Virus record (IMG/VR): IMGVR_UViG_2654588181_000001
Reading direction: 5' to 3' (one strand)
Length of the DNA: 48,351 nt
DNA from: a virus
Lineage: Duplodnaviria; Heunggongvirae; Uroviricota; Caudoviricetes
Below are positions 1-48,351 of the stretch, in pieces. The number at the start of each line of letters is the position of its first letter. Position 1 is the stretch's first letter. Below the pieces are notes generated by a model. The model worked only from the letters and a program-made list of their open reading frames with translations, was not told the origin of the DNA and made no database searches. A program made the position numbers and the translations under genes.

Positions 1-1361
1 TTTACCGTTTCCTGTAAACCGAGGTATTCGATAACGGCAGCAACGGTTGATTTCGCAAGAATATCCCGCCCGACTTTTGTCAGGGTTGCCAGGCTGGCGA
101 CATCATTCCCCGTAAAATACGGAAACTTGTCTGCCGCAGTAGTAAGCCCGGCCAGCGCCGTCAGGGTGGCATCTTTCGGTTGCTTACCCGCAAGCGCGTT
201 AGTCATGGTGGTCGCAAAATTCGGGTCGTTTCCCAGCGCCGCCGCTAACTCGTTCAGCGTATTCAGTGCGTCAGGTGACGAATCTACAAGGGCGGCAATC
301 GCAGCCATAACATAAGCCGTGCTTGCGATCTGAGTATTGTTAGTACCTTTTGGCGCAGTTGGTGTTGTTGGTGTTCCGGTCAGCGCCGGACTGTTCAGGG
401 GCGCTTTCTTGTTCGTTTCATCCATTACCACCTTTATAGCTTTCGATGTCGCGGCCAGTGTTTCAGACGTGCTGTTGGTGGCACTACTGAGCTGAGTTAT
501 TCCCCTTACAGTCAGTGAAGCTACAGGCACATTTGTTATCTGCTCCCACGAATGCGTGTGATTGGACGGAGCCTTTCCGGCCGCAAGATCATACGCTGCC
601 TTAACAGCCTTTGGTGTTGCTGCCAGCGTTTCAGACGTGCTGTTGGTGGCACTACTGAGCTGAACAATCCCTTTTCGCGCTGTGGTAGCGTCCTGTGCGG
701 TGTATTTAGCATTAGCCAGGTCATATGCTGCCTTAACAGCCTTAGGCGTCGCAGCAAGCGTTTCAGACGCGCTATTGGTGGCGCTGCTAAGTTGAACAAA
801 GCCTTTTGAGGTTAAAGTTGCATCAGGATGATTACGTGATTGCTCATGTTTCACAATGGCTTGCTTAAGCCGTTTTGCTGAAACAGCAAGGGAATCATCT
901 GTACCTGCATCAATTTCTTGTTCATTAGCAAATCTTGCCACCCCAACAACAGTTTCGGTCGCGGGAGGATTAATAAACTCAATATCACCAAATGTAATAT
1001 TTTTAGTATCAAGCGTTTTAATTGCTATATCACTTGATATTAAAGCGATAGTAGATGATGCTTTATTTATTATTGCTTGTTCTTGTGAGTATACAGCAAA
1101 CAACGTACCCTTATTCGTATACAATCCTATTGTATGGACAACATACTCATCTTTACTATCATCCTTCGCTGTTACATGAATTGTATCAGGGGAAACAACT
1201 TTGCCACCTATTGTGGTAAGTCGTTTTATTTCGTTTGTTATATTTGTTTGTGAAGTTGACGTGACATAATATCTACTACCTAAACCAACAGAAACAATCT
1301 CAACTTTATTTGTTCCTGTTTTGTTGGCATTAACCAGCTCCTGACGCCCGGCGTCAGTCAT
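1..1361 (-). CDS. tail fibre protein, constant N-terminal part (partial at window edge; continues in frame into 48351..47390 if ends are joined)
   Basis: Minus-strand ORF from ATG at 1359-1361 (MTDAGRQELVNANKTG...) with no stop before position 1; three tandem ~50-aa repeats (GIVQLSSATNSTSETLAATPKAVKAAYDLA); last codons ...AVIEYLGLQETV lie inside the 25-bp inversion crossover repeat; sits downstream of baseplate gpI/gpJ-like genes. Confidence 0.8.
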   Translation of the reverse strand, partial: MTDAGRQELVNANKTGTNKVEIVSVGLGSRYYVTSTSQTNITNEIKRLTTIGGKVVSPDTIHVTAKDDSKDEYVVHTIGLYTNKGTLFAVYSQEQAIINKASSTIALISSDIAIKTLDTKNITFGDIEFINPPATETVVGVARFANEQEIDAGTDDSLAVSAKRLKQAIVKHEQSRNHPDATLTSKGFVQLSSATNSASETLAATPKAVKAAYDLANAKYTAQDATTARKGIVQLSSATNSTSETLAATPKAVKAAYDLAAGKAPSNHTHSWEQITNVPVASLTVRGITQLSSATNSTSETLAATSKAIKVVMDETNKKAPLNSPALTGTPTTPTAPKGTNNTQIASTAYVMAAIAALVDSSPDALNTLNELAAALGNDPNFATTMTNALAGKQPKDATLTALAGLTTAADKFPYFTGNDVASLATLTKVGRDILAKSTVAAVIEYLGLQETV

Positions 1362-24499: not shown

Positions 24500-24700
24500 T
24501 TAATGCTCGCGTCGTCCGGCGACAACTTCGGATTTGTATTTCAGGTCGCCCAGCAAGAATTGCAGTTTAAGCATCTTTGCCGCCGTGTAGTTCCCTGATT
24601 CCACAACCTCTTTCATGAGGTCATAAACGGCCGCAACATCATCAGCCAGGAACTCTTTGCGTTGCTGCTCAGTCGCACGTTTGAAGGAAATACGCATCAC
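24500..24700 (-). CDS. hypothetical protein
   Basis: 66-aa ORF overlapping stop of upstream gene. Confidence 0.4.
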   Translation of the reverse strand: MMRISFKRATEQQRKEFLADDVAAVYDLMKEVVESGNYTAAKMLKLQFLLGDLKYKSEVVAGRREH

Positions 24701-24966
24701 TCATCATCTCCTGCCGCACATACAACCTCACAAAAAACATCAGCGGAATGTTTCTTTTTGAATGAATGGCGCTCAAAACCGCACTCAATATCAGGCGCAA
24801 AAACATCCACCACATACGGTCTTTCAGAATGTTTGTTTTCCCAACGATAAACCGTAGTGACGTTGAAATGTTTTAACGCTTCACGGAACTCAACGCTGCC
24901 CGTCAGGTTTTTTGAGGTCAGGTATTGCAGGAGGTTTTTTACTACTTCACGGTCTTGTACTTTCAT
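24697..24966 (-). CDS. hypothetical protein (first gene after promoter-leader cassette copy 1)
   Basis: 89-aa ORF; ATG preceded by CCGGAGATAACCCG leader. Confidence 0.5.
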   Translation of the reverse strand: MKVQDREVVKNLLQYLTSKNLTGSVEFREALKHFNVTTVYRWENKHSERPYVVDVFAPDIECGFERHSFKKKHSADVFCEVVCAAGDDE

Positions 24967-25083
24967 CGGGTTATCTCCGGTTTAACCAGGGCGGGTATCG
25001 CTCGGTTTCGGGTATAACCATAGGAAATTTTTTCCCACCTGTAAAGCACCTTTTATATAAATATATAATTATATAATTCTATG
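24967..25083 (-). promoter_or_regulatory. repeated promoter-leader cassette, copy 1
   Basis: Near-identical to 31746..31865 and 41210..41330; -35 TTTACA, 17-nt spacer containing GGAAAAAATTTCC, -10 TATGGT, ~60-nt conserved leader, GGAG then ATG. Confidence 0.6.
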
Positions 25084-25666
25084 CCACTTGCCAGAGAGCA
25101 TCATGCAACTGGATACCTCCATTGCACTGGTTGCCCCAGCCATGCCAGCCATCAGGTAAATCACCGCGAGCAAACAGCTCAATACGGGGAACATCACCTA
25201 ACAGCCTTACCAGCTTGTCACGAACCACATCAGGCTTCCGAGAATGCTCCAGACGAGGCGATGTAAACGACTGAATGATCCCCGCATCAAGGCGGGTCGG
25301 CAGTTTGCCTTTTACCGCAAACAAGCAATCTTCACTGTTTGCACGAGTCATATGCCCCATCCCCATCACCAGCTTATCTGGTTGTCGGCTACCACATTTG
25401 TTCCATGTGAAGCCCTTCATGGTCATCAGCCTGAATCCCCATGCTTTCACCACCAGCAACGCTTCTTCTGGCTGAGTCGGAACCCACCACATGGCCAACA
25501 AACACGATTCAGGATTAGCAAGCTGCCAGACAGGAATACGAGCAATATCCTCAGCTTTCATCGTTGGATACTTAAAACCAGCGCCACGATTCCCATCCTT
25601 ACACTTGTCTTTGTATTCCCAGGGGGGATCTGCATAAATCAGATTAAACAATGCAATTGCCTCCAT
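25079..25666 (-). CDS. DNA N6-adenine methyltransferase, MT-A70-like
   Basis: 195-aa ORF with catalytic DPPW motif (LIYADPPWEY). Confidence 0.75.
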   Translation of the reverse strand: MEAIALFNLIYADPPWEYKDKCKDGNRGAGFKYPTMKAEDIARIPVWQLANPESCLLAMWWVPTQPEEALLVVKAWGFRLMTMKGFTWNKCGSRQPDKLVMGMGHMTRANSEDCLFAVKGKLPTRLDAGIIQSFTSPRLEHSRKPDVVRDKLVRLLGDVPRIELFARGDLPDGWHGWGNQCNGGIQLHDALWQVA

Positions 25667-25973: not shown

Positions 25974-26049
25974 TGGTGGCCCCTACCGGATTTGAACCGA
26001 TGACCGTGCGATTATGAGTCGCCTGCTCTAACCACTGAGCTAAGGGGCC
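25974..26049 (-). tRNA. tRNA with CAU anticodon (Ile2/lysidine type or Met), CCA encoded
   Basis: 76-nt cloverleaf: GGCCCCT acceptor stem, D-arm TAGCTCAGTGGTTAGAGCA, anticodon loop CTCATAA, T-loop GGTTCAAATCC, 3' CCA; first ~42 nt match my recollection of E. coli ileX. Confidence 0.8.
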
Positions 26050-26218
26050 ATATTTGATTTGTTTGTCTGGTGTGGCGCCGCGCACGAAAATCCCAGCCAA
26101 TAAATTCAGGATTTTTGGGCGCGGCGGCATATCAGACAAACATGGTTGATGCGTGCGCCCATGAGAAAAGCGCATAGAATGTTGTAACTATATATTTATA
26201 TAATTATAGAAATATATA

Positions 26219-26428
26219 TTACTTTCGGCAGTTGATTTCCCATGCCCTGTTATGAGCCAGAATATCTTTCTTTGTCTGGCGGTCCATAACATCGATGTCG
26301 TGATCAGTCAGGTAGATGGGCTTTACCCAATCACAGGCGGTATCAACCACCACCGGGACGCTTCCACGACTCCCGCAGCTCGCGATCAACATCGTCATCA
26401 GCCATATGGTTAACACTCTGCTGTACAT
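26219..26428 (-). CDS. o-spanin (Rz1-like lipoprotein), overlapping in alternate frame
   Basis: 69-aa ORF with lipobox-like LIASC; overlaps 3' end of Rz-like gene. Confidence 0.5.
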   Translation of the reverse strand: MYSRVLTIWLMTMLIASCGSRGSVPVVVDTACDWVKPIYLTDHDIDVMDRQTKKDILAHNRAWEINCRK

Positions 26429-30322: not shown

Positions 30323-30621
30323 GCCACAGCCCCTCTCAACGGCTTAACTTTGGCTAATAAGGTGTTAAACAACATGGAGTTAGGATTCATGCCAAATGGC
30401 AATTCCGGTTTAGCGGAGTAGTACAGGCAACCATTTATTTTCCTGGTTGTTATCTGTCCTTCGGCAACCATGCTTCTCAGTCTGCAACGCATAGAGTTCT
30501 GCGACACACCAATGTGCTCCGCGATTACGTCCACTTTTGAACATGGGTGATCGGTCAGGAAATTAATCACATCTTGGGGGTTAATAATTTTGCGTTTCAT
30601 TGTCGAGGCGTCCTTATACAT
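30319..30621 (-). CDS. small HTH DNA-binding protein (first gene of 4-gene operon); start may be second ATG at 30600
   Basis: 100-aa ORF; AT-palindrome motif and terminator hairpin immediately upstream. Confidence 0.5.
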   Translation of the reverse strand: MYKDASTMKRKIINPQDVINFLTDHPCSKVDVIAEHIGVSQNSMRCRLRSMVAEGQITTRKINGCLYYSAKPELPFGMNPNSMLFNTLLAKVKPLRGAVA

Positions 30622-30677
30622 TTATATAAATATATAATTCTATATACGGCGGGAGACATCCCGCCGTAGGCTTACTG

Positions 30678-31745
30678 TCAGGCTTTCAATAGCGATTCTT
30701 TCAGATATCGGGCATCAGCCAGGGCGTTTGGAGTAATCTTGCGAACCCATGCATTACGGGTTGGACTCCACTTAAAGGCGCGTGATTTAAGCAGCGAACG
30801 AATGTTTGCCTCTGGTTTGCCAGGGAAATAAAACAGGATGCGGTTATCCTCTGGATCTATCTCCATAGAAAAGCCGTCGTATTCTTCGCGCTGTGCTCCT
30901 GTTACAGACTTGACCGATTCAAGCTCCTTAATACGGCTCTGTAGTCGTTTGATTTCGGCGTTATTGTTGCTCAGTGCGTATGAAGGGAATCCGATGCGCC
31001 CACAGAAATCTCCGGCCAGTAACTCTTTGGCTTCGCTTTCTGTAAACCTGAGATCGATTAATGCAGAAAGCTGCTGTATTTGGTCTTTTTTGTATTTGCG
31101 AATGGCCTTATTTGCGGCCTTCATTTTGACGTGTGACTTCATGCAGCCTTGCAGCTTACGAAGCAACTTAAATAGCGCATCAGGATCATCAGACGAAATT
31201 CCATTACGACCAACACCTGCGGCTTTGCTCTCGTAGTGTGATGCTTTACTTTCGCATTCAACAAACGCTTTTCTGAATAACGCATCAGCTTTAGACAAAC
31301 GGCGGCGATGGCCTTTCGCGCTATAATGGTCAACTAAAATCGGCTGGCCTAACGGGATCACATCCAACAGGTCATGCGCTCGCTTATGCGCTACCGCACC
31401 TTCTTTTCTGGCTTTTTCTGCACGAGCAATATATCGGGCAAGACGCGCGTTCTGGCGTTCCTGATAGGTGTTTACGTAATCATCTCCGCGCTGCTGCTGT
31501 TCAAGCCATGCTTTGCGCAGATCTTCTGTTACGTCCACCAGCTCCGCAGGGATACAACCAGTTTGGGCTTCATAAGAGTAACCATCCTCATAGATACGCC
31601 CATCGTCTTCAACAAAGAAAAAGGTTTCGTGCTCATCGCTTTTGACCATACGACCATTAACATGGCGTAATAGGTAGCCAGTATCAGTGCTTAACAGGCT
31701 GTTAGGGTTGTTGATCCAGTCAGAAATAATTACTTGTTTATTCAT
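30678..31745 (-). CDS. conserved hypothetical protein (possibly DUF3560-like)
   Basis: 355-aa ORF directly driven by promoter-leader cassette copy 2. Confidence 0.55.
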   Translation of the reverse strand: MNKQVIISDWINNPNSLLSTDTGYLLRHVNGRMVKSDEHETFFFVEDDGRIYEDGYSYEAQTGCIPAELVDVTEDLRKAWLEQQQRGDDYVNTYQERQNARLARYIARAEKARKEGAVAHKRAHDLLDVIPLGQPILVDHYSAKGHRRRLSKADALFRKAFVECESKASHYESKAAGVGRNGISSDDPDALFKLLRKLQGCMKSHVKMKAANKAIRKYKKDQIQQLSALIDLRFTESEAKELLAGDFCGRIGFPSYALSNNNAEIKRLQSRIKELESVKSVTGAQREEYDGFSMEIDPEDNRILFYFPGKPEANIRSLLKSRAFKWSPTRNAWVRKITPNALADARYLKESLLKA

Positions 31746-31865
31746 CAGATTTCTCCGGTTTAACCAGGGCGGGTATCGCTCGGTTTCGGGTATAACCTTA
31801 GGAAATTTTTTCCCACCTGTAAAGCACTTTTTATATAAATCTATAATTATATATTTATAGATTTT
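31746..31865 (-). promoter_or_regulatory. repeated promoter-leader cassette, copy 2
   Basis: Same ~115-bp element as copies 1 and 3; -10 variant TAAGGT; leader ...CCGGAGAAATCTG ATG. Confidence 0.6.
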
Positions 31866-34265: not shown

Positions 34266-34284
34266 TTAACGAACTCCAGTTAAA

Positions 34285-34402
34285 ACCACGATATGTGGTA
34301 TTAAAACCACATATCGTGAGTTTTTCAATGGGCGAAACAAAAAATAACCTTCTATTTGTGGTCCACCTCTCGTCTTACCATGTGAAAACCACTAAATGTG
34401 GT
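34285..34402. promoter_or_regulatory. divergent promoter/operator region with ACCAC-N5-GTGGT operators
   Basis: ACCACGATATGTGGT (34285..34299), ACCACATATCGTG (34306..34318), GTGGTCCAC (34357..34365), ACCACTAAATGTGGT (34388..34402). Confidence 0.65.
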
Positions 34403-34439
34403 AATGTATAAATAACCCACCATTCACGATTGATGAGAC

Positions 34440-35096
34440 ATGAAAAGCAACGACGAGAACATCAAGAAAGAAATAGGTCTGCGCATTCAGACTCTACGGA
34501 AACAATCCGGCATGACTGCCGGAGATCTCCAGCAAGTCACTGGAATAGGCTTAAGCACCTTGCAGAACTATGAGGCCGGATTAAGACAACCATCTATACC
34601 TGCCATCAAGAAAATCGCGCACGCCCTAAAAGCATCAGCGCCTTACATCGCGTGCTTAACAGATAACCCGTTCCCACCCCAGAATACTAACGCTCCTGTT
34701 ATTCCTGGGCTTGTAGCTATAAAAAATGACATAGCATCGCACGCCGGAGAAAAGCCTGTGCTGGCGATAGAACAGGAGATTTTACGAAGCAAGAACATCA
34801 ACCCATCGTCTCTGTCAGTTCTCCAGAGCAACGATGAGTTAATGTCACCAACAATATCCCCTGGCTCCCAAGTCCTGATTAATACAGACGATACAGAGAT
34901 TCATGAGGGGATCTATGCCCTTGAAGACAGAAATGGCCTAGTTGTTTTGAGGCACTGTAGAGTCATACCGGGTGACAATGCTGTTATGCTGTCAACCGAA
35001 AGGGATGCTGAAATGAACACTAAGCATCTGAATAACGAGGAATTTAAGCGTTATAAAGTTCTTGGCCGCGTAGTTAGTGTTGTCAACTGGTTATGA
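34440..35096 (+). CDS. CI-like repressor (HTH plus S24/LexA-like autocleavage domain)
   Basis: 218-aa ORF; N-terminal HTH; C-terminal ELMSPTISPGSQVLIN resembles S24 Ser-nucleophile region. Confidence 0.8.
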   Translation: MKSNDENIKKEIGLRIQTLRKQSGMTAGDLQQVTGIGLSTLQNYEAGLRQPSIPAIKKIAHALKASAPYIACLTDNPFPPQNTNAPVIPGLVAIKNDIASHAGEKPVLAIEQEILRSKNINPSSLSVLQSNDELMSPTISPGSQVLINTDDTEIHEGIYALEDRNGLVVLRHCRVIPGDNAVMLSTERDAEMNTKHLNNEEFKRYKVLGRVVSVVNWL

Positions 35097-35188: not shown

Positions 35189-35563
35189 ATGGAATTACAT
35201 ACAGCCAATAAAAACGAAACTCTGATCACTGCTGGAATCGAAATCCAAGCGTTGAACATAGCGATTGAGTGTATGTTATGCCAAATCATTGATAATGAGA
35301 AAGATATCGACTGGATAGAATCTATCCTTCATCTGGCATCAGAACAAAAAGTCTGCCTCAAAACGGCCTTACAATACGATGTGCCAGCGGTATCGAAGCT
35401 GTGCCAGCCATTGATGGCATATAACAGAGCTATTATTTCTGTATGCCTCATGATTCTCGATGAAAACACCCCTCTTAGCGACCGCTCAGAAGCTGCTCTA
35501 ACCCTCTCACGTAAACAGCGACAGCTAGCAAATCAACTGATATCAACGATAGCTGACCTCTGA
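35189..35563 (+). CDS. hypothetical protein downstream of repressor (superinfection-exclusion position)
   Basis: 124-aa ORF preceded by operator-like ACCACATTTTGTGGT at 35140..35154 overlapping a TTGACA. Confidence 0.45.
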   Translation: MELHTANKNETLITAGIEIQALNIAIECMLCQIIDNEKDIDWIESILHLASEQKVCLKTALQYDVPAVSKLCQPLMAYNRAIISVCLMILDENTPLSDRSEAALTLSRKQRQLANQLISTIADL

Positions 35564-35713
35564 CTGCAAGCGGGCTAACGCCCGCTTATATGATTATAGA
35601 TTTATATAATTATATAAAACGCTTTTCATCCGCCAAAAAGTTGGTTATGCTTACCTCGTTCTATAAATATAGATTTATAGAATTATATAATCAAACACAT
35701 GGAGTCTCGACAA

Positions 35714-36367
35714 ATGACTATCTCTGTAGGTATTTTCAACGGAAAAGGTGGCGTAACCAAATCAACAATTGCCCGTGCTTTAGCAGTTGCTTATGCAAAG
35801 GCTGGCTGGAATGTATGCCTGATCGATATGGATGTGCTTAACGGAACGGTAACGCGTTGGGTACAACGCAGAATGGCCAACAATATCGAACCAGCAATCG
35901 CGGCGCAGCCGTGCGGCACACCATCACAAGTCCAGAAAATCATCGAATCAGAAGTATACGACCTGGTTATCGTTGATGGCGGTGCCTACGCATCTGAATC
36001 AGTACCGAAGCTATCTGAATTTCTGGATATGGTTATTTTGCCAACCCGATTCTCTACCGATGACCTGGAAACCACCGTTAACACTGCTCACGGCATCGTT
36101 AAAAAGGGTGTACCAATCAAGAAAATTTGCATGGTGTTTTCCGGCGCGGCTGAAAACGAAGCTGACTATATTGAAGCCCAAGAGTACCTGGCTAATACGC
36201 CATACTTTGTTGTCGATAAGTACATTCCCCACAAGCCAGCTCTGAGCAAAGCTCAGGATAAGGGCTTAAGCCTCATTGAATGCTCATACGTTGCGCCACG
36301 CAAAAAGGCAGACGACGTTATTCAGGGGATTATCAACCAGCTTGAGGCTCTGACTACTGCCGCGTAA
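35714..36367 (+). CDS. parA: ParA-family partition ATPase
   Basis: Deviant Walker A GIFNGKGGVTKST at N-terminus; ATG at 35714 with GGAG 10 nt upstream. Confidence 0.85.
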   Translation: MTISVGIFNGKGGVTKSTIARALAVAYAKAGWNVCLIDMDVLNGTVTRWVQRRMANNIEPAIAAQPCGTPSQVQKIIESEVYDLVIVDGGAYASESVPKLSEFLDMVILPTRFSTDDLETTVNTAHGIVKKGVPIKKICMVFSGAAENEADYIEAQEYLANTPYFVVDKYIPHKPALSKAQDKGLSLIECSYVAPRKKADDVIQGIINQLEALTTAA

Positions 36368-36410
36368 TATATAATTATAGTTTTATAGATTTATATAAGA
36401 GGGGATACAC

Positions 36411-36659
36411 ATGGCCGCACCATCAAAACCACCAAAGAAGAACAGCAAAGGCGTACCGCCATCGATCGAACAACCGCAAGTTTTCGACCCGACTGAAACG
36501 CCAACCAGAACCAAATCAGGTGGGGCTCAAATGGCGTTTAATGTCGACCCTGAATTTAAACGCGAGTACAAAACGTTCGCCAGCTCAATGGATATGTCAT
36601 TGAAAGAAGTGCTGACAAAGTCTTTTGAGTTACTCAAGGCTCAATACAACCAGAAGTAA
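36411..36659 (+). CDS. small centromere-binding partner (ParG-like RHH)
   Basis: 82-aa ORF directly after parA; disordered basic N-terminus then MAFNVDPEFKREYKTFA RHH-like segment. Confidence 0.55.
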   Translation: MAAPSKPPKKNSKGVPPSIEQPQVFDPTETPTRTKSGGAQMAFNVDPEFKREYKTFASSMDMSLKEVLTKSFELLKAQYNQK

Positions 36660-36880: not shown

Positions 36881-36903
36881 TAAAAAAGGCCCCCGAAGGG
36901 GCC
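36881..36903 (-). terminator. rho-independent terminator
   Basis: GGCCCC-CGAA-GGGGCC hairpin followed by T-run on minus strand. Confidence 0.5.
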
Positions 36904-36909
36904 TAATCG

Positions 36910-37029
36910 CTACTTGCTGCTAATGTTTATCGTCACATTCAGAGCGTTATCAGTAATCTTCCAACCCTCCCCATGTGGCGTAAACAAAGCTCCAGTAACA
37001 ACGATAAAAATACACATACAGTATTTTTT
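36910..37029 (-). CDS. small hydrophobic peptide (40 aa) with own SD and terminator
   Basis: MKKYCMCIFIVVTGALFTPHGEGW...; AAGGG 8 nt upstream of ATG; terminator immediately downstream. Confidence 0.35.
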   Translation of the reverse strand, partial: KKYCMCIFIVVTGALFTPHGEGWKITDNALNVTINISSK

Positions 37030-37785
37030 CATTGTGTGGCCCTTACAGGCCGTTTCACGGCATCCCCACCGACGAAAACAACGCGAGAGCAAGCACGGCT
37101 GCTTGTGCTTGCATGTACGGCAACAGGAAATCCTCCCCTAAAGTCGGTGCCCGGGTGCGAATCGGCGGGAAGGTCCACAGGTATTTTACGATTATTTTAA
37201 GATTAGTAATAGGAAAGAAATTAAACGAAAAAAACAGTTTATTTTCACAAAATCAGTAACCTACCCACAATCTGTGAGTTTGCTGACACAACAAGAACCA
37301 CAATTTTTTGATGTATAATAGTGGACTATTATTACCTTTTGAGTAAAATCAATTTGCTGCTTGTGCTTGCGTGGTTGTTTATACAACAACGTAATGCTGA
37401 AAGGACCGCGAATCCGATCAGCACGAAAGAACCGTCCTCAATAGGGCGGTTTTTTTGTTTCTGCCTACCAATAAACCCACGCTATGTGGTTGTCTCTGTT
37501 AAAATCCCGCCGTATTGACATGAATGCGCCATTGGTGGACACTTTCCGAGCCGTAGCAAAATCTACGGTCGGGATTAGCCTCCTGAATAACACGATGGCG
37601 CATACCGCGTTAGCGGTTTTTTTATGCGTAGAGCACTGTTACGCCCAAATTATGGTGGGTCGTACAGGGGCGGAGAAATCCGCGCCGGTTCGTCATTGTG
37701 TCCGGTAAGGCTAACCCTGTACGGCTCACCACCATTTGATTAGCCTCGAATGGCGGTGATAGTTCCATATACTGGAGATATCACA

Positions 37786-37977
37786 ATGACAAACCTACCC
37801 CATGACTATTACGTCAACCTCGTAAAGATCCTTCTCAAGAAAGCCTCATACGCCGATAAATTCCGCCTGGCTGAAATCATCGAGCGCGAAGCTATGCGCA
37901 TCGCCAGCAACGATAACGCTGTTTCTGACGCAAAAATCTCCCTCGTAACCAAAGTAGTTATGGGAGGTGCAAAATGA
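37786..37977 (+). CDS. small ORF overlapping antirepressor start (icd-like position)
   Basis: Stop overlaps ant ATG (ATGA at 37974..37977); start uncertain. Confidence 0.35.
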   Translation: MTNLPHDYYVNLVKILLKKASYADKFRLAEIIEREAMRIASNDNAVSDAKISLVTKVVMGGAK

Positions 37978-39116
37978 AAACGCTTCCGACCGTTAACACC
38001 CTACAGCCTATCCTGCATAACCAGATCCCCGTTATCACTAGTGAACTTCTGGCGCAGTTATACGGAACAAAAATCAAAAACATTTCTGATAACTTTCTGA
38101 ACAACACGACGCGATTCGTAGCCGGAAAGCATTACTTTAAAATTGAAAAAAACGAATTACGCGAGTTCAAGAACAGACCCGAAACAATCGGGTTAGTTGG
38201 TAAAAATGCCCGCTCCCTAATTCTCTGGACCGAACGCGGGGCTGCACGTCACGCTAAAATGCTCGAAACCGATCAGGCGTGGGATGTATTCGAACGGCTG
38301 GAAGACTGCTATTTCAGCCAGAACGCGCAAACGGCCGCGACCGTAACCGTCTCGCCAAACAATGCTCGTGAGGTTGTCGATACGCTCAACGCCAAACCGA
38401 TGTTTTACATTAAGGTGTGCAATAACGAGCCACTCACAACCTCAGCCGATGTTGCCCAGGCATTCAGCACCACAAACAATTCCATCGTTATGGCCATCGA
38501 TGCGCTACGCATTCCTCGCACGGCTGCGGCGCGTCACTTCTTTAAAGAGCAACGACCGTTGGAAGGAAGCGACCGCGAAATAACAATCTATCGCATGACA
38601 AAAGACGGATTTACCTTGCTCATGGAGAGCATCGACGGTCCAGGCGTGAAAGATATCAAGCTGGCCTACATTGAAGCCTTTAACGCTATCAGCAGCGTGT
38701 TAAAAACACAGTACGAGCGTGATCTGGCTAAACGACTGTACCAGGAAAAAACGATTATCCGCGCGGCAACAGAGCATAATCGGCTATTAACGGAACCGAA
38801 CTACAGGAAGGAACTAATCAAGGAGTTTGACAAGGCAACAGGGAAAACCAAAGCGGCGCTAAATCTGCCAGCAATGACTCAGGAAAATGTGATATCAGCC
38901 TTACTTCTTGATCTGCTCAGAAACGCCAGAGCACTTATCAGCTTTGACGAAAACCTGAATCCTCAGCTCAAGCTACTACCACCGACAGGCAAAGTAGTCG
39001 ACCAGGCTGATCACAACAGCATACTCAGCGTACTGGATGCAAACCTGCCAGCCAGGACACTACAGGATCTGATAAAAACATGTGCTGATAAGCTGGCACA
39101 GAAAAGCAGACCATAA
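37974..39116 (+). CDS. antirepressor (Ant-like)
   Basis: 380-aa ORF; N-terminal KilA-N/ORF6N-like segment; operator-like CCCACGCTATGTGGT upstream at 37477..37491. Confidence 0.7.
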   Translation: MKTLPTVNTLQPILHNQIPVITSELLAQLYGTKIKNISDNFLNNTTRFVAGKHYFKIEKNELREFKNRPETIGLVGKNARSLILWTERGAARHAKMLETDQAWDVFERLEDCYFSQNAQTAATVTVSPNNAREVVDTLNAKPMFYIKVCNNEPLTTSADVAQAFSTTNNSIVMAIDALRIPRTAAARHFFKEQRPLEGSDREITIYRMTKDGFTLLMESIDGPGVKDIKLAYIEAFNAISSVLKTQYERDLAKRLYQEKTIIRAATEHNRLLTEPNYRKELIKEFDKATGKTKAALNLPAMTQENVISALLLDLLRNARALISFDENLNPQLKLLPPTGKVVDQADHNSILSVLDANLPARTLQDLIKTCADKLAQKSRP

Positions 39117-40828: not shown

Positions 40829-41209
40829 TTACTTAACGAGGAATAAAAATGGTTTATTGTTAGGCGGTGTAATCGGGGCTGGCTCGCTTTTGCTCATGCG
40901 ATCAGTGTACCAGGCCAACTCCTTGTCAAAGTAAGCCTGATTAAAATAGGCCATGAATGTAGTTTCAAATCCATAACGACCGCTAATACGCAGCATCTGA
41001 TTGCCGTTCTCTGTTTCCAGATATACCTGGGCACGCTCCTGATTCTCCTTCAGCCAAGTTAAAGCCTCATCGCACGAGGACACACGATACTCATCATCGT
41101 AGCCGTCATCGATGCGGCTTGAAGAAGAACGGCAAATCACGCCAACAGAACCAGCCAGGATAGTTTGAATTTTAAGGAAAGCGTTTTTGCGGATTTTAAT
41201 CATGCTCAT
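40829..41209 (-). CDS. hypothetical protein (driven by cassette copy 3)
   Basis: 126-aa ORF; ATG preceded by CCGGAGATAACCCG. Confidence 0.5.
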   Translation of the reverse strand: MSMIKIRKNAFLKIQTILAGSVGVICRSSSSRIDDGYDDEYRVSSCDEALTWLKENQERAQVYLETENGNQMLRISGRYGFETTFMAYFNQAYFDKELAWYTDRMSKSEPAPITPPNNKPFLFLVK

Positions 41210-41330
41210 CGGGTTATCTCCGGTTTAACCAGGGCGGGTATCGCTCGGTTTCGGGTATAACCATAGGAAATTTTTTCCCATCCGCAAAGCACTTTTTATA
41301 TAAATCTATAATTATATAATTCTATGAGCA
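41210..41330 (-). promoter_or_regulatory. repeated promoter-leader cassette, copy 3
   Basis: Same element as copies 1 and 2; -35 variant TTTGCG; preceded by terminator 41326..41358. Confidence 0.6.
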
Positions 41331-41358
41331 CAAAAAAGCCCCTTTGCAACAGGGGCTT
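41326..41358 (-). terminator. rho-independent terminator after antitoxin gene
   Basis: AAGCCCCT-loop-AGGGGCTT followed by T-run on minus strand. Confidence 0.6.
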
Positions 41359-43481: not shown

Positions 43482-44330
43482 TTAATGTTGGAGTGATTTC
43501 CAGGTCTTTCTTAACCTGTTATAACGCTGCTCAACGAGGGATCGTAAATATGCAAGGTCAGCTCCAGGATACATGCCATCAGCAAATTCCTGGCTAACCT
43601 CTCTAGTGATTTGATGACGAAGTTCGGCCTCTCCCTTTTCCCGAACAAGACGCGCAGCTCTCTCCGCTGCTTTCTGTTTTGCCTTTATCTCTCTGGCCGT
43701 CTTCCTCTGACGCCATACATTCTCCATCTGCTCCTGAATAACAATACGCTTATAATCAGCCTCCGTTATCGCTTTTTTAAGCCGTTCGCTATTCTTCGCA
43801 TTGAAGTAATTAAGTTTCTGGCTAACCGCACGTCTCCATGCTTGTTCAGTAATACCAACGGTTTCCAGCAGTTGATCACGAATCTCTATTTTCGCTGGCC
43901 AATACTGTTTATTCACCCGATCCCAGCGACGTTCATAATCAATAAAACCTAACGCTTTCAGTTGCGACAACGCCCTTGTACAGCGTGTTATAGACTTGTT
44001 CCCAGCTTCGGATACGGTAGACAGGCCGCAAAAATCAGCCAACGCCTCAGCACTGGCCAGAACCCGCTTAGAAATGATGTTTACATGGTGCAAAATCGCA
44101 GCAATCACAGCATTAATCGCCCGACGACGATGCTCGTTTATCCGACGCTTCCGCTCTGACGGTTGATTAACGTAGAACGCAACCTCACACGTAAGATCAC
44201 GACCATTAATGCGCTGTAAAGCATCAGATAACACCAGCGGCAGCTTGTGCGTATGGTGCTTTGGAGGCTGGAACTCCGGCGACAAATTACAAACGTAAGC
44301 TGAACGTAGAGACGGCATTGGTCTATCCAT
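43482..44330 (-). CDS. repA: plasmid replication initiator, IncFII RepA-family
   Basis: ...GLSTVSEAGNKSITRCTRALSQLKALGFIDYE... resembles IncFII RepA1 core as recalled; start uncertain (TTG 44360, ATG 44330 or 44318). Confidence 0.75.
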   Translation of the reverse strand: MDRPMPSLRSAYVCNLSPEFQPPKHHTHKLPLVLSDALQRINGRDLTCEVAFYVNQPSERKRRINEHRRRAINAVIAAILHHVNIISKRVLASAEALADFCGLSTVSEAGNKSITRCTRALSQLKALGFIDYERRWDRVNKQYWPAKIEIRDQLLETVGITEQAWRRAVSQKLNYFNAKNSERLKKAITEADYKRIVIQEQMENVWRQRKTAREIKAKQKAAERAARLVREKGEAELRHQITREVSQEFADGMYPGADLAYLRSLVEQRYNRLRKTWKSLQH

Positions 44331-44344
44331 ATGTTCGCTCTTGC

Positions 44345-44457
44345 GTCCACGGAAAACCAACGTATAATGGGAGTTGTCGAGGCGCCCATGGTTAATTGGT
44401 TGTTGGTTTTCCGTGGATGTCGCAAGAAGCCCGCAGATTTATCTGCGGGCTTTTTGT
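44345..44457 (+). ncRNA. candidate countertranscript (CopA-like antisense RNA)
   Basis: Plus-strand 15-bp-stem hairpin (44347..44361 / 44403..44417) plus intrinsic terminator GCCCGCAGA-TTTAT-CTGCGGGC-TTTTT (44428..44457), antisense to repA leader. Confidence 0.35.
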
Positions 44458-47389: not shown

Positions 47390-48351
47390 TTAAATACTCC
47401 CCGCGTTATACCACGTTCCATTAATGCAATACTGAATTGGCCTTGCCTGAGTTGTATCAATTAATTCATCACGGTTTCCGTTAACTGACCCCGTAACGAC
47501 ATAACCTGACCTGTCAGACCAGCCGGGACCATTCCATGTCTGAACAGATGACAGACCGCCAAGACGAATACCTGTAATAAACCTTGAGTTACATTCTGCC
47601 TGCGTGTATGCACCAACATCTCCCGCAGAGGGTTTGCGGGTTGTGGTGTAAAACTCTGACCAGTCAGCTTCAAAGCCATAACCATCACGCGCTGAACGAT
47701 AAAAGATACCGCCATTTCTGTAATTCACGCGGAACTGTACAGCAGGGCTGCTCCCCGTATTCATATTGAAGTGGAGGATTAATGTCGATGCGCCACCAAT
47801 ATTTGCGTTATAGACCCCGCTATTCCAGTTCCAGCCAACAGCTTTATCATTTCCGACAGTGCTTCCTGTTTGCCCTAAAGCAAATGCAGGCTGCTGGTTT
47901 TTCGTGTTGTAGTCTCGTCGCCAGCCAGGAGCATAAGCATCACCATGATTAATATAGGTGAATTGAGCGTTAGTAATTCCGCCGCCGCTGGACGTACTCG
48001 GCGTAGTAACGCGTATGGTCATTGCGCCGCGAGTGCCAATAACTTCCACCACAGCACCTGCAAGACAAATATTTCCGCAACCTGTATCTGTAATGACCTT
48101 ATTATTTGCATAAGCCCATGAGCCTTTGCACATCCAGTAAGGATGGTTAAATGCCCCCTGACTCTCCAGCCACGAAATAAATTGCGCAGTTGTCCAGACC
48201 TGACTATCGCCACCAATATCCACCCATGCGCTATATGCGCGACAGGCCCCAATATTTTTGGTGAAGGTATCTTTTCCCGGAATATCTGCGCCGTTCTGGT
48301 TTTTCTGTAATGCGCCAGAAGCCTGATTTACCGTTTCCTGTAAACCGAGGT
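47390..48351 (-). CDS. tail-fibre variable C-terminal part (in frame with constant part at 1..1361 across the junction)
   Basis: Minus-strand frame open from 48351: [18 protein letters not shown]...; Gly-rich distal domain ending INGTWYNAGSI. Confidence 0.8.
   Translation of the reverse strand, partial: LGLQETVNQASGALQKNQNGADIPGKDTFTKNIGACRAYSAWVDIGGDSQVWTTAQFISWLESQGAFNHPYWMCKGSWAYANNKVITDTGCGNICLAGAVVEVIGTRGAMTIRVTTPSTSSGGGITNAQFTYINHGDAYAPGWRRDYNTKNQQPAFALGQTGSTVGNDKAVGWNWNSGVYNANIGGASTLILHFNMNTGSSPAVQFRVNYRNGGIFYRSARDGYGFEADWSEFYTTTRKPSAGDVGAYTQAECNSRFITGIRLGGLSSVQTWNGPGWSDRSGYVVTGSVNGNRDELIDTTQARPIQYCINGTWYNAGSI
48327..48351. repeat. inversion crossover site, right inverted repeat (identical to 1..25)
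   Basis: TTTACCGTTTCCTGTAAACCGAGGT; core resembles gix/cix-type sites as recalled. Confidence 0.8.

What the first reader, a model, noticed from the sequence alone, without database searches (positions are those of the whole stretch)
35581..35700. Dispersed AT palindrome TATAATTATA at six intergenic sites, with two near-copies
The perfect 10-bp palindrome occurs at 25062..25075 (extended to 14 bp), 26199..26208, 31843..31852, 35603..35616 (14 bp), 36370..36379 and 41307..41316. One-mismatch copies lie at 30631..30645 and 35675..35688. Most are flanked by TTTATATAA or ATAGATTTATA. About 0.05 copies of a given 10-mer are expected by chance in 48 kb. Sites sit upstream of parA (two), between parA and its partner gene, at the top of the 30621 operon, in all three cassettes, and near the tRNA. 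They could be binding sites for the RHH partition protein, another phage regulator, or a host architectural protein.
Basis: seen in the sequence. Interest (0 to 1): 0.6.

Follow-up and report, generated by a model that had tools for sequence, protein, structure and literature searches.

The report
Eight partition-protein binding arrays in phage-plasmid
The repeated AT palindrome is real, but it is only the visible part of eight 32-bp arrays (four tandem 8-bp units each) that most likely bind the small protein partnering the plasmid-partition ATPase, linking partition to the promoters of several other genes on this E. coli phage-plasmid.

Summary
TATAATTATA occurs 6 times against 0.06 expected, and 17 times at up to 1 mismatch against 2.4 expected.

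The functional unit is not the 10-mer. Each site is an array of exactly four in-phase 8-bp units: TTATATAA, or the oriented variants TTATAGAW/WTCTATAA. There are eight arrays, all within 25–41.3 kb of a roughly 48.3-kb circular phage-plasmid.

- Arrays E and F bracket a conserved sigma70-like parA promoter.
- G lies between parA and its 82-aa partner gene.
- A, D and H sit 7 bp upstream of the -35 of a repeated promoter-leader cassette.
- C abuts a ribosome-binding site.
- B has no recognisable promoter context.

A weight matrix trained only on E, F and G scores all eight arrays at 37–43 bits. The next-best site scores 15 and the shuffle maximum is 16.

Serratia/Pantoea relatives keep the same layout, including dispersed arrays. 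There the central dinucleotide of every unit is AA/TT instead of TA, and the partner's predicted beta-strand changes from QM(A/S)FNV to xMNFNV.

Best reading: the arrays are operators/centromeres of a ParG/omega-like ribbon-helix-helix partition adaptor that doubles as a plasmid-wide regulator. Binding itself is untested. This is a new variant of a known kind and of moderate interest.

The parts
35586..35617 (+). Array E: TTATATGA TTATAGAT TTATATAA TTATATAA. It follows the terminator hairpin of the 124-aa gene directly and ends 5 bp before the -35 of the parA promoter.
35623..35651 (+). Predicted sigma70-type parA promoter: TTTTCA, 17 bp, TATGCT. It lies between arrays E and F. A promoter in the same position (-35, 17 bp, -10) is found in the Salmonella, Serratia and Pantoea relatives, although the spacer sequences differ.
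   Evidence: prediction from sequence; start site not mapped
35659..35690 (+). Array F: TTCTATAA ATATAGAT TTATAGAA TTATATAA. It starts 7 bp after the -10, so it covers about +1 to +32. It ends 10 bp before the GGAG ribosome-binding site of parA.
35714..36367 (+). parA: a small (217 aa) Walker-type partition ATPase with no N-terminal DNA-binding domain.
36367..36398 (+). Array G: ATATATAA TTATAGTT TTATAGAT TTATATAA. It overlaps the last base of the parA stop codon and ends immediately before the GAGGGG ribosome-binding site of the partner gene.
36411..36659 (+). The 82-aa partner gene. It has a disordered basic N-terminal tail (MAAPSKPPKKNSKGVPP...) and a C-terminal strand-helix-helix (AQMAFNV, helix 47-59, helix 62-81). 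It is the proposed ribbon-helix-helix centromere-binding protein and regulator.
25053..25084 (-). Array A, read on the - strand: GCATAGAA TTATATAA TTATATAT TTATATAA. It overlaps the stop codon of the MT-A70 methyltransferase gene and lies 7 bp upstream of the cassette promoter.
25017..25045 (-). Cassette promoter after array A (TTTACA, 17 bp, TATGGT). A leader of about 45 nt with a hairpin follows, then the 89-aa gene at 24697-24966.
26188..26219 (.). Array B: CTATATAT TTATATAA TTATAGAA ATATATAT. It lies between the 92-aa gene and tRNA-Met (25974-26049, - strand). No promoter follows at the standard distance, so I call it a 'bare' array.
30614..30645 (-). Array C, read on the - strand: ATATAGAA TTATATAT TTATATAA ATGTATAA. 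It follows a terminator hairpin directly and ends 13 bp before the ATG (30600) of a 93-aa winged-helix-like gene.
31831..31862 (-). Array D, read on the - strand: ATCTATAA ATATATAA TTATAGAT TTATATAA. It lies upstream of the cassette promoter at 31795-31823 (TTTACA, 17 bp, TAAGGT), which drives the 355-aa DUF3560 gene at 30678-31745.
41296..41327 (-). Array H, read on the - strand: TCATAGAA TTATATAA TTATAGAT TTATATAA. It follows the terminator at 41336-41358 and lies upstream of the cassette promoter at 41260-41288 (TTTGCG, 17 bp, TATGGT), which drives the 126-aa gene at 40829-41209.

Best explanation
The window is a complete circular phage-plasmid of about 48.3 kb. It has an IncFII RepA replicon, myovirus structural genes, a CI-type repressor and a P1-like c4/ant module. 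The palindrome marks eight 32-bp arrays, each made of four contiguous 8-bp units (TTATATAA, with oriented variants).

I propose that each unit binds one dimer of the 82-aa ribbon-helix-helix protein encoded just after parA, so four dimers coat an array cooperatively. This is how ParG coats its 8-bp-period boxes, how MetJ coats 8-bp met-boxes, and how omega coats its heptads.

- Arrays E (about -43 to -74) and F (about +1 to +32) bracket the parA promoter. Together with G they would form the autoregulatory operator and the centromere on which the N-terminal tails of the bound protein stimulate ParA.
- A, D and H place the same protein 7 bp upstream of the -35 of three copies of an insulated cassette (terminator, array, promoter, structured leader, gene).
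- C places it directly in front of a ribosome-binding site.
- B has no assignable target.

The partition adaptor would therefore also act as a plasmid-wide regulator, most likely a repressor that competes with RNA polymerase contacts upstream of -35. The element would carry several centromere-competent sites spread over 16 kb.

Shown here: the array anatomy, its non-randomness, its position relative to conserved promoter-like hexamers, and its joint change with the par-proximal arrays and the partner protein in relatives.

Inferred: the ribbon-helix-helix fold, who binds, the stoichiometry, the sign of regulation and the centromere activity.
For: 1. Array anatomy.
- All eight sites have exactly four in-phase units scoring above the 99th percentile of background, apart from the outermost unit of array A at about the 98th. 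The flanking units score at background.
- Identity at lag 8 is 75%, against about 42% in shuffles.

2. One family of sites.
- A matrix built only from E, F and G gives 37-43 bits for A, B, C, D and H. The next-best site in the genome scores 15 and the shuffle maximum is 16.

3. Position.
- E and F flank a -35, 17 bp, -10 promoter that keeps its place in Salmonella, Serratia and Pantoea relatives while its spacer diverges.
- A, D and H end 7 bp before TTTACA, 17 bp, TATGGT.
- The CI operators (ACCAC..GTGGT palindromes at 34280-34410) are a different sequence.

4. Joint change in relatives.
- In E. coli/Salmonella-type elements the central dinucleotide of the unit is TA in 36 of 36 par-proximal units and 56 of 60 dispersed units.
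- In Serratia-type elements it is AA/TT in 27 of 28 par-proximal and 44 of 48 dispersed units, and never TA.
- The partner's strand is GAQM(A/S)FNV in the first group and G(K/R)xMNFN(V/M) or RPLNFNV in the second.
- The Serratia plasmids also have 4-5 dispersed arrays, about 85-94 nt or about 14 nt upstream of start codons.

5. Link to the par pair.
- A Saprospiraceae contig carrying a homologous parA-partner pair also has 8-bp-period arrays (ATTTCRTT) upstream of parA and between the two genes.
- I did not check which other genes that contig shares with the window.

6. The partner protein.
- It has a disordered basic tail followed by two helices after a short extended segment.
- A family profile aligns in register with the whole ribbon-helix-helix of ParG (hhalign P = 1.8e-4).
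- 15 of 47 family members touch Pfam RHH_10, 10 of 47 touch Antitox_RHH, and a few touch 56B_RHH, HicB, ParD or NikA-like, all weakly.

7. Precedents.
- ParG coats ACTC boxes separated by 4-bp AT spacers, one dimer per box, at both the operator and the centromere (PMC3130281).
- Omega binds repeat arrays that overlap three promoters and serve as parS, and four contiguous repeats are the minimum for full ParA activation (PMC9499535). Four is exactly the length of every array here.
Against: - No binding, expression or stability data exist for this element. None turned up in the full-text library.
- The joint change rests on essentially two lineages (TA type and AA/TT type) plus one distant case. 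Everything else in these elements also differs between the lineages, so it does not single out the partner as the binder.
- Arrays upstream of -35 coincide with where an AT-rich UP element would lie, so part of their effect could be protein-independent.
- Array B, and one Serratia array (L002 29747-29778), have no promoter context, which a purely regulatory role does not explain.
- Four-unit arrays are much shorter than the 8-12 boxes that ParG needs for good centromere activity.
Confidence: 0.6

Rival explanations
1. The arrays are operators of a different element-encoded regulator, for example the conserved-in-position 124-aa protein at 35189-35563 or an unrecognised small protein. On this reading the par operon is merely one member of that regulator's regulon.
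For: - The cI, 124-aa gene, parA, partner order is kept in Salmonella and Serratia relatives.
- The 124-aa gene ends right at array E.
- The joint change with lineage cannot tell apart proteins that co-diverge.
Against: - The 124-aa protein is only 20-24% identical between lineages. It has no family or domain hit apart from a PHROG of unknown function.
- The winged-helix-like gene after array C is not at that position in the Serratia plasmids.
- 8-bp arrays accompany the parA-partner pair in a Bacteroidota contig.
- Tandem short repeats bracketing the parA promoter are the signature of the partition adaptor's own site in type Ib systems.
Confidence: 0.15
2. The arrays act without a dedicated protein. 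They would be AT-rich UP elements that boost weak promoters through the RNA polymerase alpha subunit, or preferred sites for host nucleoid proteins (H-NS, Fis, IHF) that silence or bend the DNA.
For: - The arrays are 93% A+T.
- They lie at about -43 to -74 of promoters whose hexamers are imperfect.
- They run into an A-tract (AAAAAGTGC) just upstream of the -35, which resembles the proximal UP subsite (the consensus is from my own knowledge).
Against: - Generic AT-richness does not explain the strict 8-bp phase, the fixed length of four units, the sharp boundaries or the lineage-specific central dinucleotide.
- F, G and C lie downstream of or away from any -35.
- Nothing like the IHF consensus (from my own knowledge) is apparent by eye in the array sequences; no pattern search was run.
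Confidence: 0.12
3. The arrays are themselves promoters: the repeated TATAAT would be stacked -10 boxes, or sites for a phage-specific polymerase or sigma factor.
For: - TATAAT occurs on both strands of the palindrome.
- The consensus scan lists hits with TATAAT inside arrays E and F.
- The arrays often follow terminators and precede genes.
Against: - By eye, the arrays at the corresponding positions in the Serratia-type elements (TTAAATAA/ATCTTTAA units) contain no TATAAT.
- A separate, conserved -35, 17 bp, -10 lies downstream of E, A, D and H.
- Arrays C and G end 12-13 bp before a start codon, so a start site downstream of a -10 inside them would leave the ribosome-binding site largely untranscribed.
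- Promoter-like hits in the region are not enriched: 18 against 26 expected.
Confidence: 0.05

Closest known systems
ParF/ParG with the parH centromere and OF operator of plasmid TP228 (type Ib partition)
   Same: - A small Walker ParA is followed by a protein of about 80 aa with a flexible N-terminal tail and a C-terminal ribbon-helix-helix.
- The binding sites are arrays with an 8-bp period (4-bp box plus 4-bp AT-rich spacer), in mixed direct and inverted orientation, upstream of the operon.
- One dimer binds per box, and the same protein is both repressor and centromere binder (PMC3130281).
- The family profile aligns in register with the ParG fold.
   Different: - There is no significant sequence membership: ParG E = 0.8, and no Pfam ParG hit.
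- The unit is an all-AT quasi-palindrome (TTATATAA) rather than ACTC.
- Arrays are 4 units long and split around the promoter, rather than 8 + 12 contiguous boxes.
- Five further arrays lie kilobases away at other genes.
Omega (ParB) / delta (ParA) of pSM19035
   Same: - A ribbon-helix-helix partition adaptor doubles as a global regulator.
- Its repeat arrays overlap the promoters of several operons and are themselves the parS sites.
- Four contiguous repeats are the functional minimum (PMC9499535). All arrays here have four units.
   Different: - Omega uses 7-bp non-palindromic heptads in arrays of 7-10.
- Its host is a Firmicute plasmid, not an enterobacterial phage-plasmid.
- There is no detectable sequence relationship.
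- The regulated genes there are copy control and a toxin-antitoxin; here they are par plus unknown cassette genes.
KorB-OB of RK2 and SopB with the four dispersed centromeres of phage-plasmid N15 (from my own knowledge; N15 was only indirectly touched)
   Same: A partition protein has palindromic sites scattered over the replicon. Those sites sit next to promoters and influence expression of non-partition genes. N15 is also a phage-plasmid.
   Different: Both use large helix-turn-helix ParB proteins (type Ia) that bind single 13-16-bp palindromes and spread or loop. They do not use tandem 8-bp units read by a small ribbon-helix-helix protein.
MetJ repressor and tandem 8-bp met-boxes (from my own knowledge)
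   Same: Ribbon-helix-helix dimers each read one 8-bp quasi-palindromic unit, and 2-5 units are abutted head to tail so that neighbouring dimers contact each other. The geometry is the same as four abutted TTATATAA units.
   Different: MetJ is a chromosomal metabolic repressor that needs a co-repressor. It has no partition role and no homology was shown.

Membership tests
Type Ib (small ParA + ribbon-helix-helix adaptor) plasmid partition systems | Walker-type ParA of about 200-230 aa that lacks the N-terminal DNA-binding domain of type Ia ParAs | tested here: met
   The protein is 217 aa. It hits CbiA/ParA/MipZ P-loop families and phrog_164 'ParA-like partition protein'. It hits NCBIfam ParA_partition at 78.6 bits, below that model's equivalog cut-off of 180.
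Type Ib (small ParA + ribbon-helix-helix adaptor) plasmid partition systems | Adaptor gene immediately downstream of parA, under 100 aa, with a disordered basic N-terminal tail | tested here: met
   The 82-aa ORF starts 44 bp after the parA stop. Residues 1-40 have low pLDDT and no secondary structure. The KPPKK..KG.PP motif is conserved across about 50 clusters of 73-92 aa among the 62 hits; the rest are long proteins matching the low-complexity tail.
Type Ib (small ParA + ribbon-helix-helix adaptor) plasmid partition systems | C-terminal ribbon-helix-helix fold | tested here: inconclusive
Type Ib (small ParA + ribbon-helix-helix adaptor) plasmid partition systems | Centromere/operator made of short tandem repeats next to or overlapping the par promoter | tested here: met
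   Arrays E and F (4 x 8 bp each) bracket the predicted promoter and G precedes the adaptor gene. The same layout is present in Salmonella, Serratia, Pantoea and a Saprospiraceae contig.
Type Ib (small ParA + ribbon-helix-helix adaptor) plasmid partition systems | The adaptor binds the repeats, stimulates ParA ATPase and stabilises a plasmid carrying the repeats | not testable with these tools
   This needs EMSA or footprinting, ATPase assays and stability assays.
ParG family proper (TP228 ParG, PDB 1P94) | Significant sequence similarity to ParG | tested here: not met
   The PDB profile search gives ParG at E = 0.81. No ParG-family Pfam hit appears among 47 family members. The protein works like ParG but is not a sequence member.
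Omega-type global regulator/ParB (pSM19035) | Repeat arrays of the partition adaptor overlapping the promoters of operons other than par | tested here: inconclusive
   Arrays of the same unit type lie 7 bp upstream of the -35 of three cassette promoters and next to the ribosome-binding site of another operon. They change together with the par arrays in relatives. Regulation itself is untested. The repeat is 8 bp rather than 7 bp, and no Omega_Repress hit was seen.
Type Ia ParB with dispersed sites (N15 SopB, RK2 KorB) | Large helix-turn-helix ParB/Srx-domain protein that reads single palindromes | tested here: not met
   The adaptor is 82 aa with no ParB/Srx or HTH domain. The sites are tandem 8-bp units.

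The most novel reading that the evidence does not exclude
The 82-aa partition adaptor is the master regulator of a plasmid-wide circuit. Eight 4 x 8-bp arrays would make the maintenance and accessory third of the phage-plasmid a distributed centromere. At the same time they would form a copy-number-sensing regulon that drives portable, insulated expression cassettes. Each cassette consists of a terminator, an array, a promoter with a second palindromic operator in its spacer, a structured leader and a cargo gene. Different cargo genes have been slotted into these cassettes in E. coli, Salmonella and Serratia lineages.
Probability: 0.3. Interest if true: 0.7.

Novelty: new variant of a known kind. 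Interest (0 to 1): 0.55.

Why it matters
This phage-plasmid family is present in 71 of 5,426 complete E. coli genomes and has relatives in Salmonella, Klebsiella, Yersinia and Serratia. Almost all of its maintenance genes are annotated 'hypothetical'.

If the arrays are the adaptor's sites, the element would be a Gram-negative, phage-borne counterpart of the omega/pSM19035 design: one small ribbon-helix-helix protein that both segregates the replicon and sets expression of several unrelated operons.

It would also provide a compact set of natural specificity variants (TA versus AA/TT core; QMAFNV versus xMNFNV strand) for studying how such proteins read DNA.

It would give an uncharacterised protein family of about 50 clusters a function. 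It would also flag the reusable array-promoter-leader cassette as the place where this family carries its variable cargo.

Tried and rejected
- Identity of the element. I first guessed the pSLy3 group of phage-plasmids. The literature shows pSLy3 belongs to the SSU5 supergroup, whose phages and plasmids (SSU5, pHCM2, pMT1) I recall as roughly 100 kb. It is therefore probably a different element. The vB_YpM_HQ103 paper was not informative.
- Wider relatives.
  - The search for related loci with the 47-sequence alignment failed for lack of a conserved stretch.
  - Scans with distant family members P0020 and P0025 found nothing.
  - The word-index protein search found only close relatives.
- Searching IMG/VR for a 16-nt array fragment returned mostly single chance matches in AT-rich contigs. 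Full-strength arrays (37 bits or more) occurred only in fragments of this family. Two unrelated AT-rich contigs reached 32-33 bits.
- A literature search for the motif returned only primers and unrelated sequences.
- CI operators as the explanation were rejected, because they are ACCAC..GTGGT palindromes at 34280-34410.
- No Rfam family covers the arrays or the cassette leader.
- The pTP33 (Yersinia pestis) relative has no clear phased array upstream of parA. I left it unresolved.

Full report
**1. What the window is**

The first and last 25 bases are identical, so the window is a circular element of about 48.3 kb. Its relatives and main genes are as follows.
- It is 96% identical to three Yersinia pestis myophages, vB_YpM_39/41/44.
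- Its parA-partner gene is found on about 60 non-mobilizable E. coli plasmids of 46-52 kb.
- The par locus is present in 71 of 5,426 complete E. coli genomes, almost always on a plasmid.
- It carries an IncFII RepA at 43482-44360 and a CI-type repressor at 34440-35096.
- It carries a small ParA at 35714-36367 followed by an 82-aa ORF at 36411-36659.
- It carries a P1-like isrK/c4/antirepressor module and one tRNA-Met.

It is therefore a phage-plasmid. It is probably not the pSLy3 group I first suspected.

**2. The observation**

TATAATTATA occurs six times against 0.06 expected. At one mismatch there are 17 hits against 2.4 expected, and sixteen of them fall in eight places at 8-bp offsets from one another. 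A, D and H lie in a 121-nt repeat family, so there are six independent sequence contexts, not eight.

**3. The real unit**

Written in register, every site is four abutted 8-bp units: TTATATAA (self-complementary), TTATAGAW (oriented) or its inverse WTCTATAA.
- Identity at lag 8 is 144 of 192 positions, against 79.8 +/- 6.5 in shuffles of the same bases. Other even lags reach 50-58%.
- The four units score above the 99th percentile of genome background, apart from the outermost unit of array A at about the 98th.
- The units on either side score at background, so each array is exactly four units long.
- A matrix trained only on the three par-proximal arrays scores the other five at 37-41 bits. 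The next-best site scores 15 and the best of 50 shuffled genomes scores 16.
- Read towards the downstream gene, the last unit is TTATATAA in six of the seven arrays with an assignable downstream gene.
- All eight arrays lie between 25.0 and 41.3 kb. None lies in the 23-kb structural-gene block or near repA.

**4. Where the arrays sit**

- Array E follows the terminator hairpin of the preceding gene directly.
- Five base pairs after E comes TTTTCA, 17 bp, TATGCT. Seven base pairs after that hexamer array F begins, and F ends 10 bp before the parA ribosome-binding site.
- A -35, 17 bp, -10 in the same position between the two arrays is present in Salmonella, three Serratia elements and Pantoea, although the intervening sequence differs.
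- G overlaps the parA stop codon and ends immediately before the partner's ribosome-binding site.
- A, D and H each end 7 bp before TTTACA (TTTGCG in H), 17 bp, TATGGT (TAAGGT in D). A nearly identical leader of about 45 nt follows, then GGAG and ATG.
- C follows a terminator and ends 13 bp before the ATG at 30600.
- B lies 139 bp upstream of tRNA-Met, with no promoter at the standard distance.
- The CI operators at 34280-34410 are ACCAC..GTGGT palindromes, unrelated to the arrays.

**5. Relatives**

- A Salmonella plasmid (partner 89% identical) has seven full arrays of the same unit type at the corresponding places, plus a three-unit E. The order of unit variants is shuffled.
- Two Serratia plasmids (CP083756, NZ_CP074139; partner 40-50% identical, ParA 53-54% identical), an IMG/VR contig (L022) and Pantoea contigs keep the whole layout.
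- In those elements the units are TTAAATAA/TTATTTAA/TTAAAGAT/ATCTTTAA.
- They also have dispersed arrays, four or five beyond the par locus, lying 84-94 nt or about 14 nt upstream of start codons.
- The discriminating position is the central dinucleotide of the unit. It is TA in 36 of 36 par-proximal and 56 of 60 dispersed units of the E. coli/Salmonella type. It is AA/TT in 27 of 28 and 44 of 48 units of the Serratia type, and never TA there.

Within each element, therefore, the dispersed arrays follow the par arrays. This argues that one binder reads them all.

The partner's predicted strand is GAQM(A/S)FNV in the TA group. It is GKxMNFN(V/M) or RPLNFNV in the AA/TT group. The two residues that differ are at alternate positions. 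From general knowledge of this fold, alternate strand residues are the ones that would face the DNA.

A Saprospiraceae contig with a homologous parA-partner pair also has 8-bp-period arrays (ATTTCRTT) upstream of parA and between the genes. I did not check which other genes that contig shares with the window.

**6. The partner protein**

- It has no Pfam or NCBIfam hit. It belongs to phrog_6024, of unknown function.
- An exhaustive search found 62 hits. About 50 are clusters of 73-92 aa with the same design: a basic, proline-rich tail with a KG.PP motif, then xLNFKV..EF..E.K.FA...DMSM.ELL...FE.YK. The rest are long proteins that match only the low-complexity tail.
- AlphaFold models give a disordered first 40 residues, a short extended segment and two confident helices.
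- The family profile aligns in register with the whole ribbon-helix-helix of ParG (hhalign P = 1.8e-4, 49% probability).
- Individual members weakly touch six different ribbon-helix-helix Pfam families, led by RHH_10 in 15 of 47.
- Fold searches with the monomer models found nothing.

I treat the fold as probable, not shown.

**7. Mechanism proposed**

The proposal rests on three analogies:
- ParG, which places one dimer per box on 8-bp-period arrays that serve as operator and centromere (PMC3130281).
- MetJ on tandem 8-bp met-boxes (my own knowledge).
- Omega, whose repeat arrays overlap three promoters, serve as parS, and need at least four contiguous repeats to activate ParA (PMC9499535).

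I propose that four adaptor dimers coat each array.
- At parA, E and F would clamp the promoter (autoregulation) and, with G, present tails to ParA (centromere).
- At A, D and H the protein would sit at about -43 to -74, where it can compete with or contact the polymerase alpha subunit.
- At C it would sit between a terminator and a ribosome-binding site.
- The sign of regulation and the centromere competence of single dispersed arrays cannot be decided from sequence. B remains unexplained.

**8. Rivals**

- Another element-encoded regulator cannot be excluded by joint change with lineage alone. However, the only conserved-in-position candidate (the 124-aa protein) is 20-24% identical between lineages and has no family or domain hit apart from a PHROG of unknown function.
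- Generic AT-rich effects (UP element, H-NS) do not explain the phase, the length or the lineage-specific core.
- The 'stacked -10 boxes' reading fails because, by eye, the Serratia-type arrays contain no TATAAT, and a separate conserved promoter lies downstream.

**9. Comparison and novelty**

Functionally this looks like a ParG/omega-type system. By sequence it is not a member of the ParG or omega families.

The dispersal of partition-protein sites to other promoters has precedents in omega, KorB and N15 SopB. What I found no description of is threefold:
- this protein family;
- its all-AT 8-bp unit in uniform four-unit arrays;
- its coupling to a reusable promoter-leader cassette in an enterobacterial phage-plasmid.

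I rate it a new variant of a known kind, with interest 0.55.

Noticed in passing
window 24963-25083, 31741-31861, 41206-41326 (- strand); also L002, L003, L011, L020-L022: The three cassettes share more than the array. The spacer of their promoter holds an inverted repeat that keeps its symmetry while changing sequence between genera: GGAAA-AAA-TTTCC here, and TAGGAC-N5-GTCCTA or ATAGGTC-N5-GACCTAT in Serratia elements. It is a candidate operator for a second, unknown dimeric regulator.
   Followed up: partly
window about 24967-25010, 31746-31788, 41210-41253 (- strand): The cassette leader forms a hairpin just upstream of the AAACCGGAGA ribosome-binding region. Its outer stem reads AACC/GGTT, GGCC/GGCC or GACC/GGTC. 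Two of the four outer pairs change on both sides and none is broken in 11 sequences from four genera. No Rfam family covers it. A second small stem may include part of the GGAG.
   Followed up: partly
window 36882-37178 (-), 37550-37623 (+), 37648-37736 (+), 37750-39116 (+): Rfam gathering-level hits to ryfA, isrK and the C4 antisense RNA. A small ORF and an ORF6N/Rha antirepressor follow. Together they form a P1/P7-type immI (c4-icd-ant) module immediately after the par operon.
   Followed up: no
window 34270-34420: Three ACCACnnAnnTGTGGT-type palindromes lie in the divergent region between the CI-type repressor gene and the leftward early operon. They are probably CI operators and are unrelated to the AT arrays.
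   Followed up: no
window 35701-35716 and 30598-30613 (- strand): parA and the 93-aa winged-helix-like gene after array C share nearly the same translation-initiation context: array, then GGAGTCTCGACAAATG versus GGACGCCTCGACAATG. The Serratia parA genes have it too. This suggests that an array-plus-start module has been duplicated.
   Followed up: no
window 26188-26219; L002 29747-29778: These are 'bare' arrays. Array B, and one Serratia array that is followed directly by a terminator, have no sigma70-like promoter at the standard distance. They may be centromere-only sites or may regulate something not annotated.
   Followed up: partly
window 1-25 and 48327-48351: An identical 25-bp overlap at the two ends of the window. 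It is consistent with a circular assembly that was not trimmed.
   Followed up: no
window 415-807: Three tandem-like copies of a 93-nt repeat (73-83% identical) lie inside the region at the start of the window, probably in a repetitive tail-fibre or structural gene.
   Followed up: no
window 35189-35563: A 124-aa acidic protein (phrog_7632) is always found between the repressor gene and parA in E. coli, Salmonella and Serratia elements. It is only 20-24% identical between lineages and has no domain hit. Its function is unknown.
   Followed up: partly
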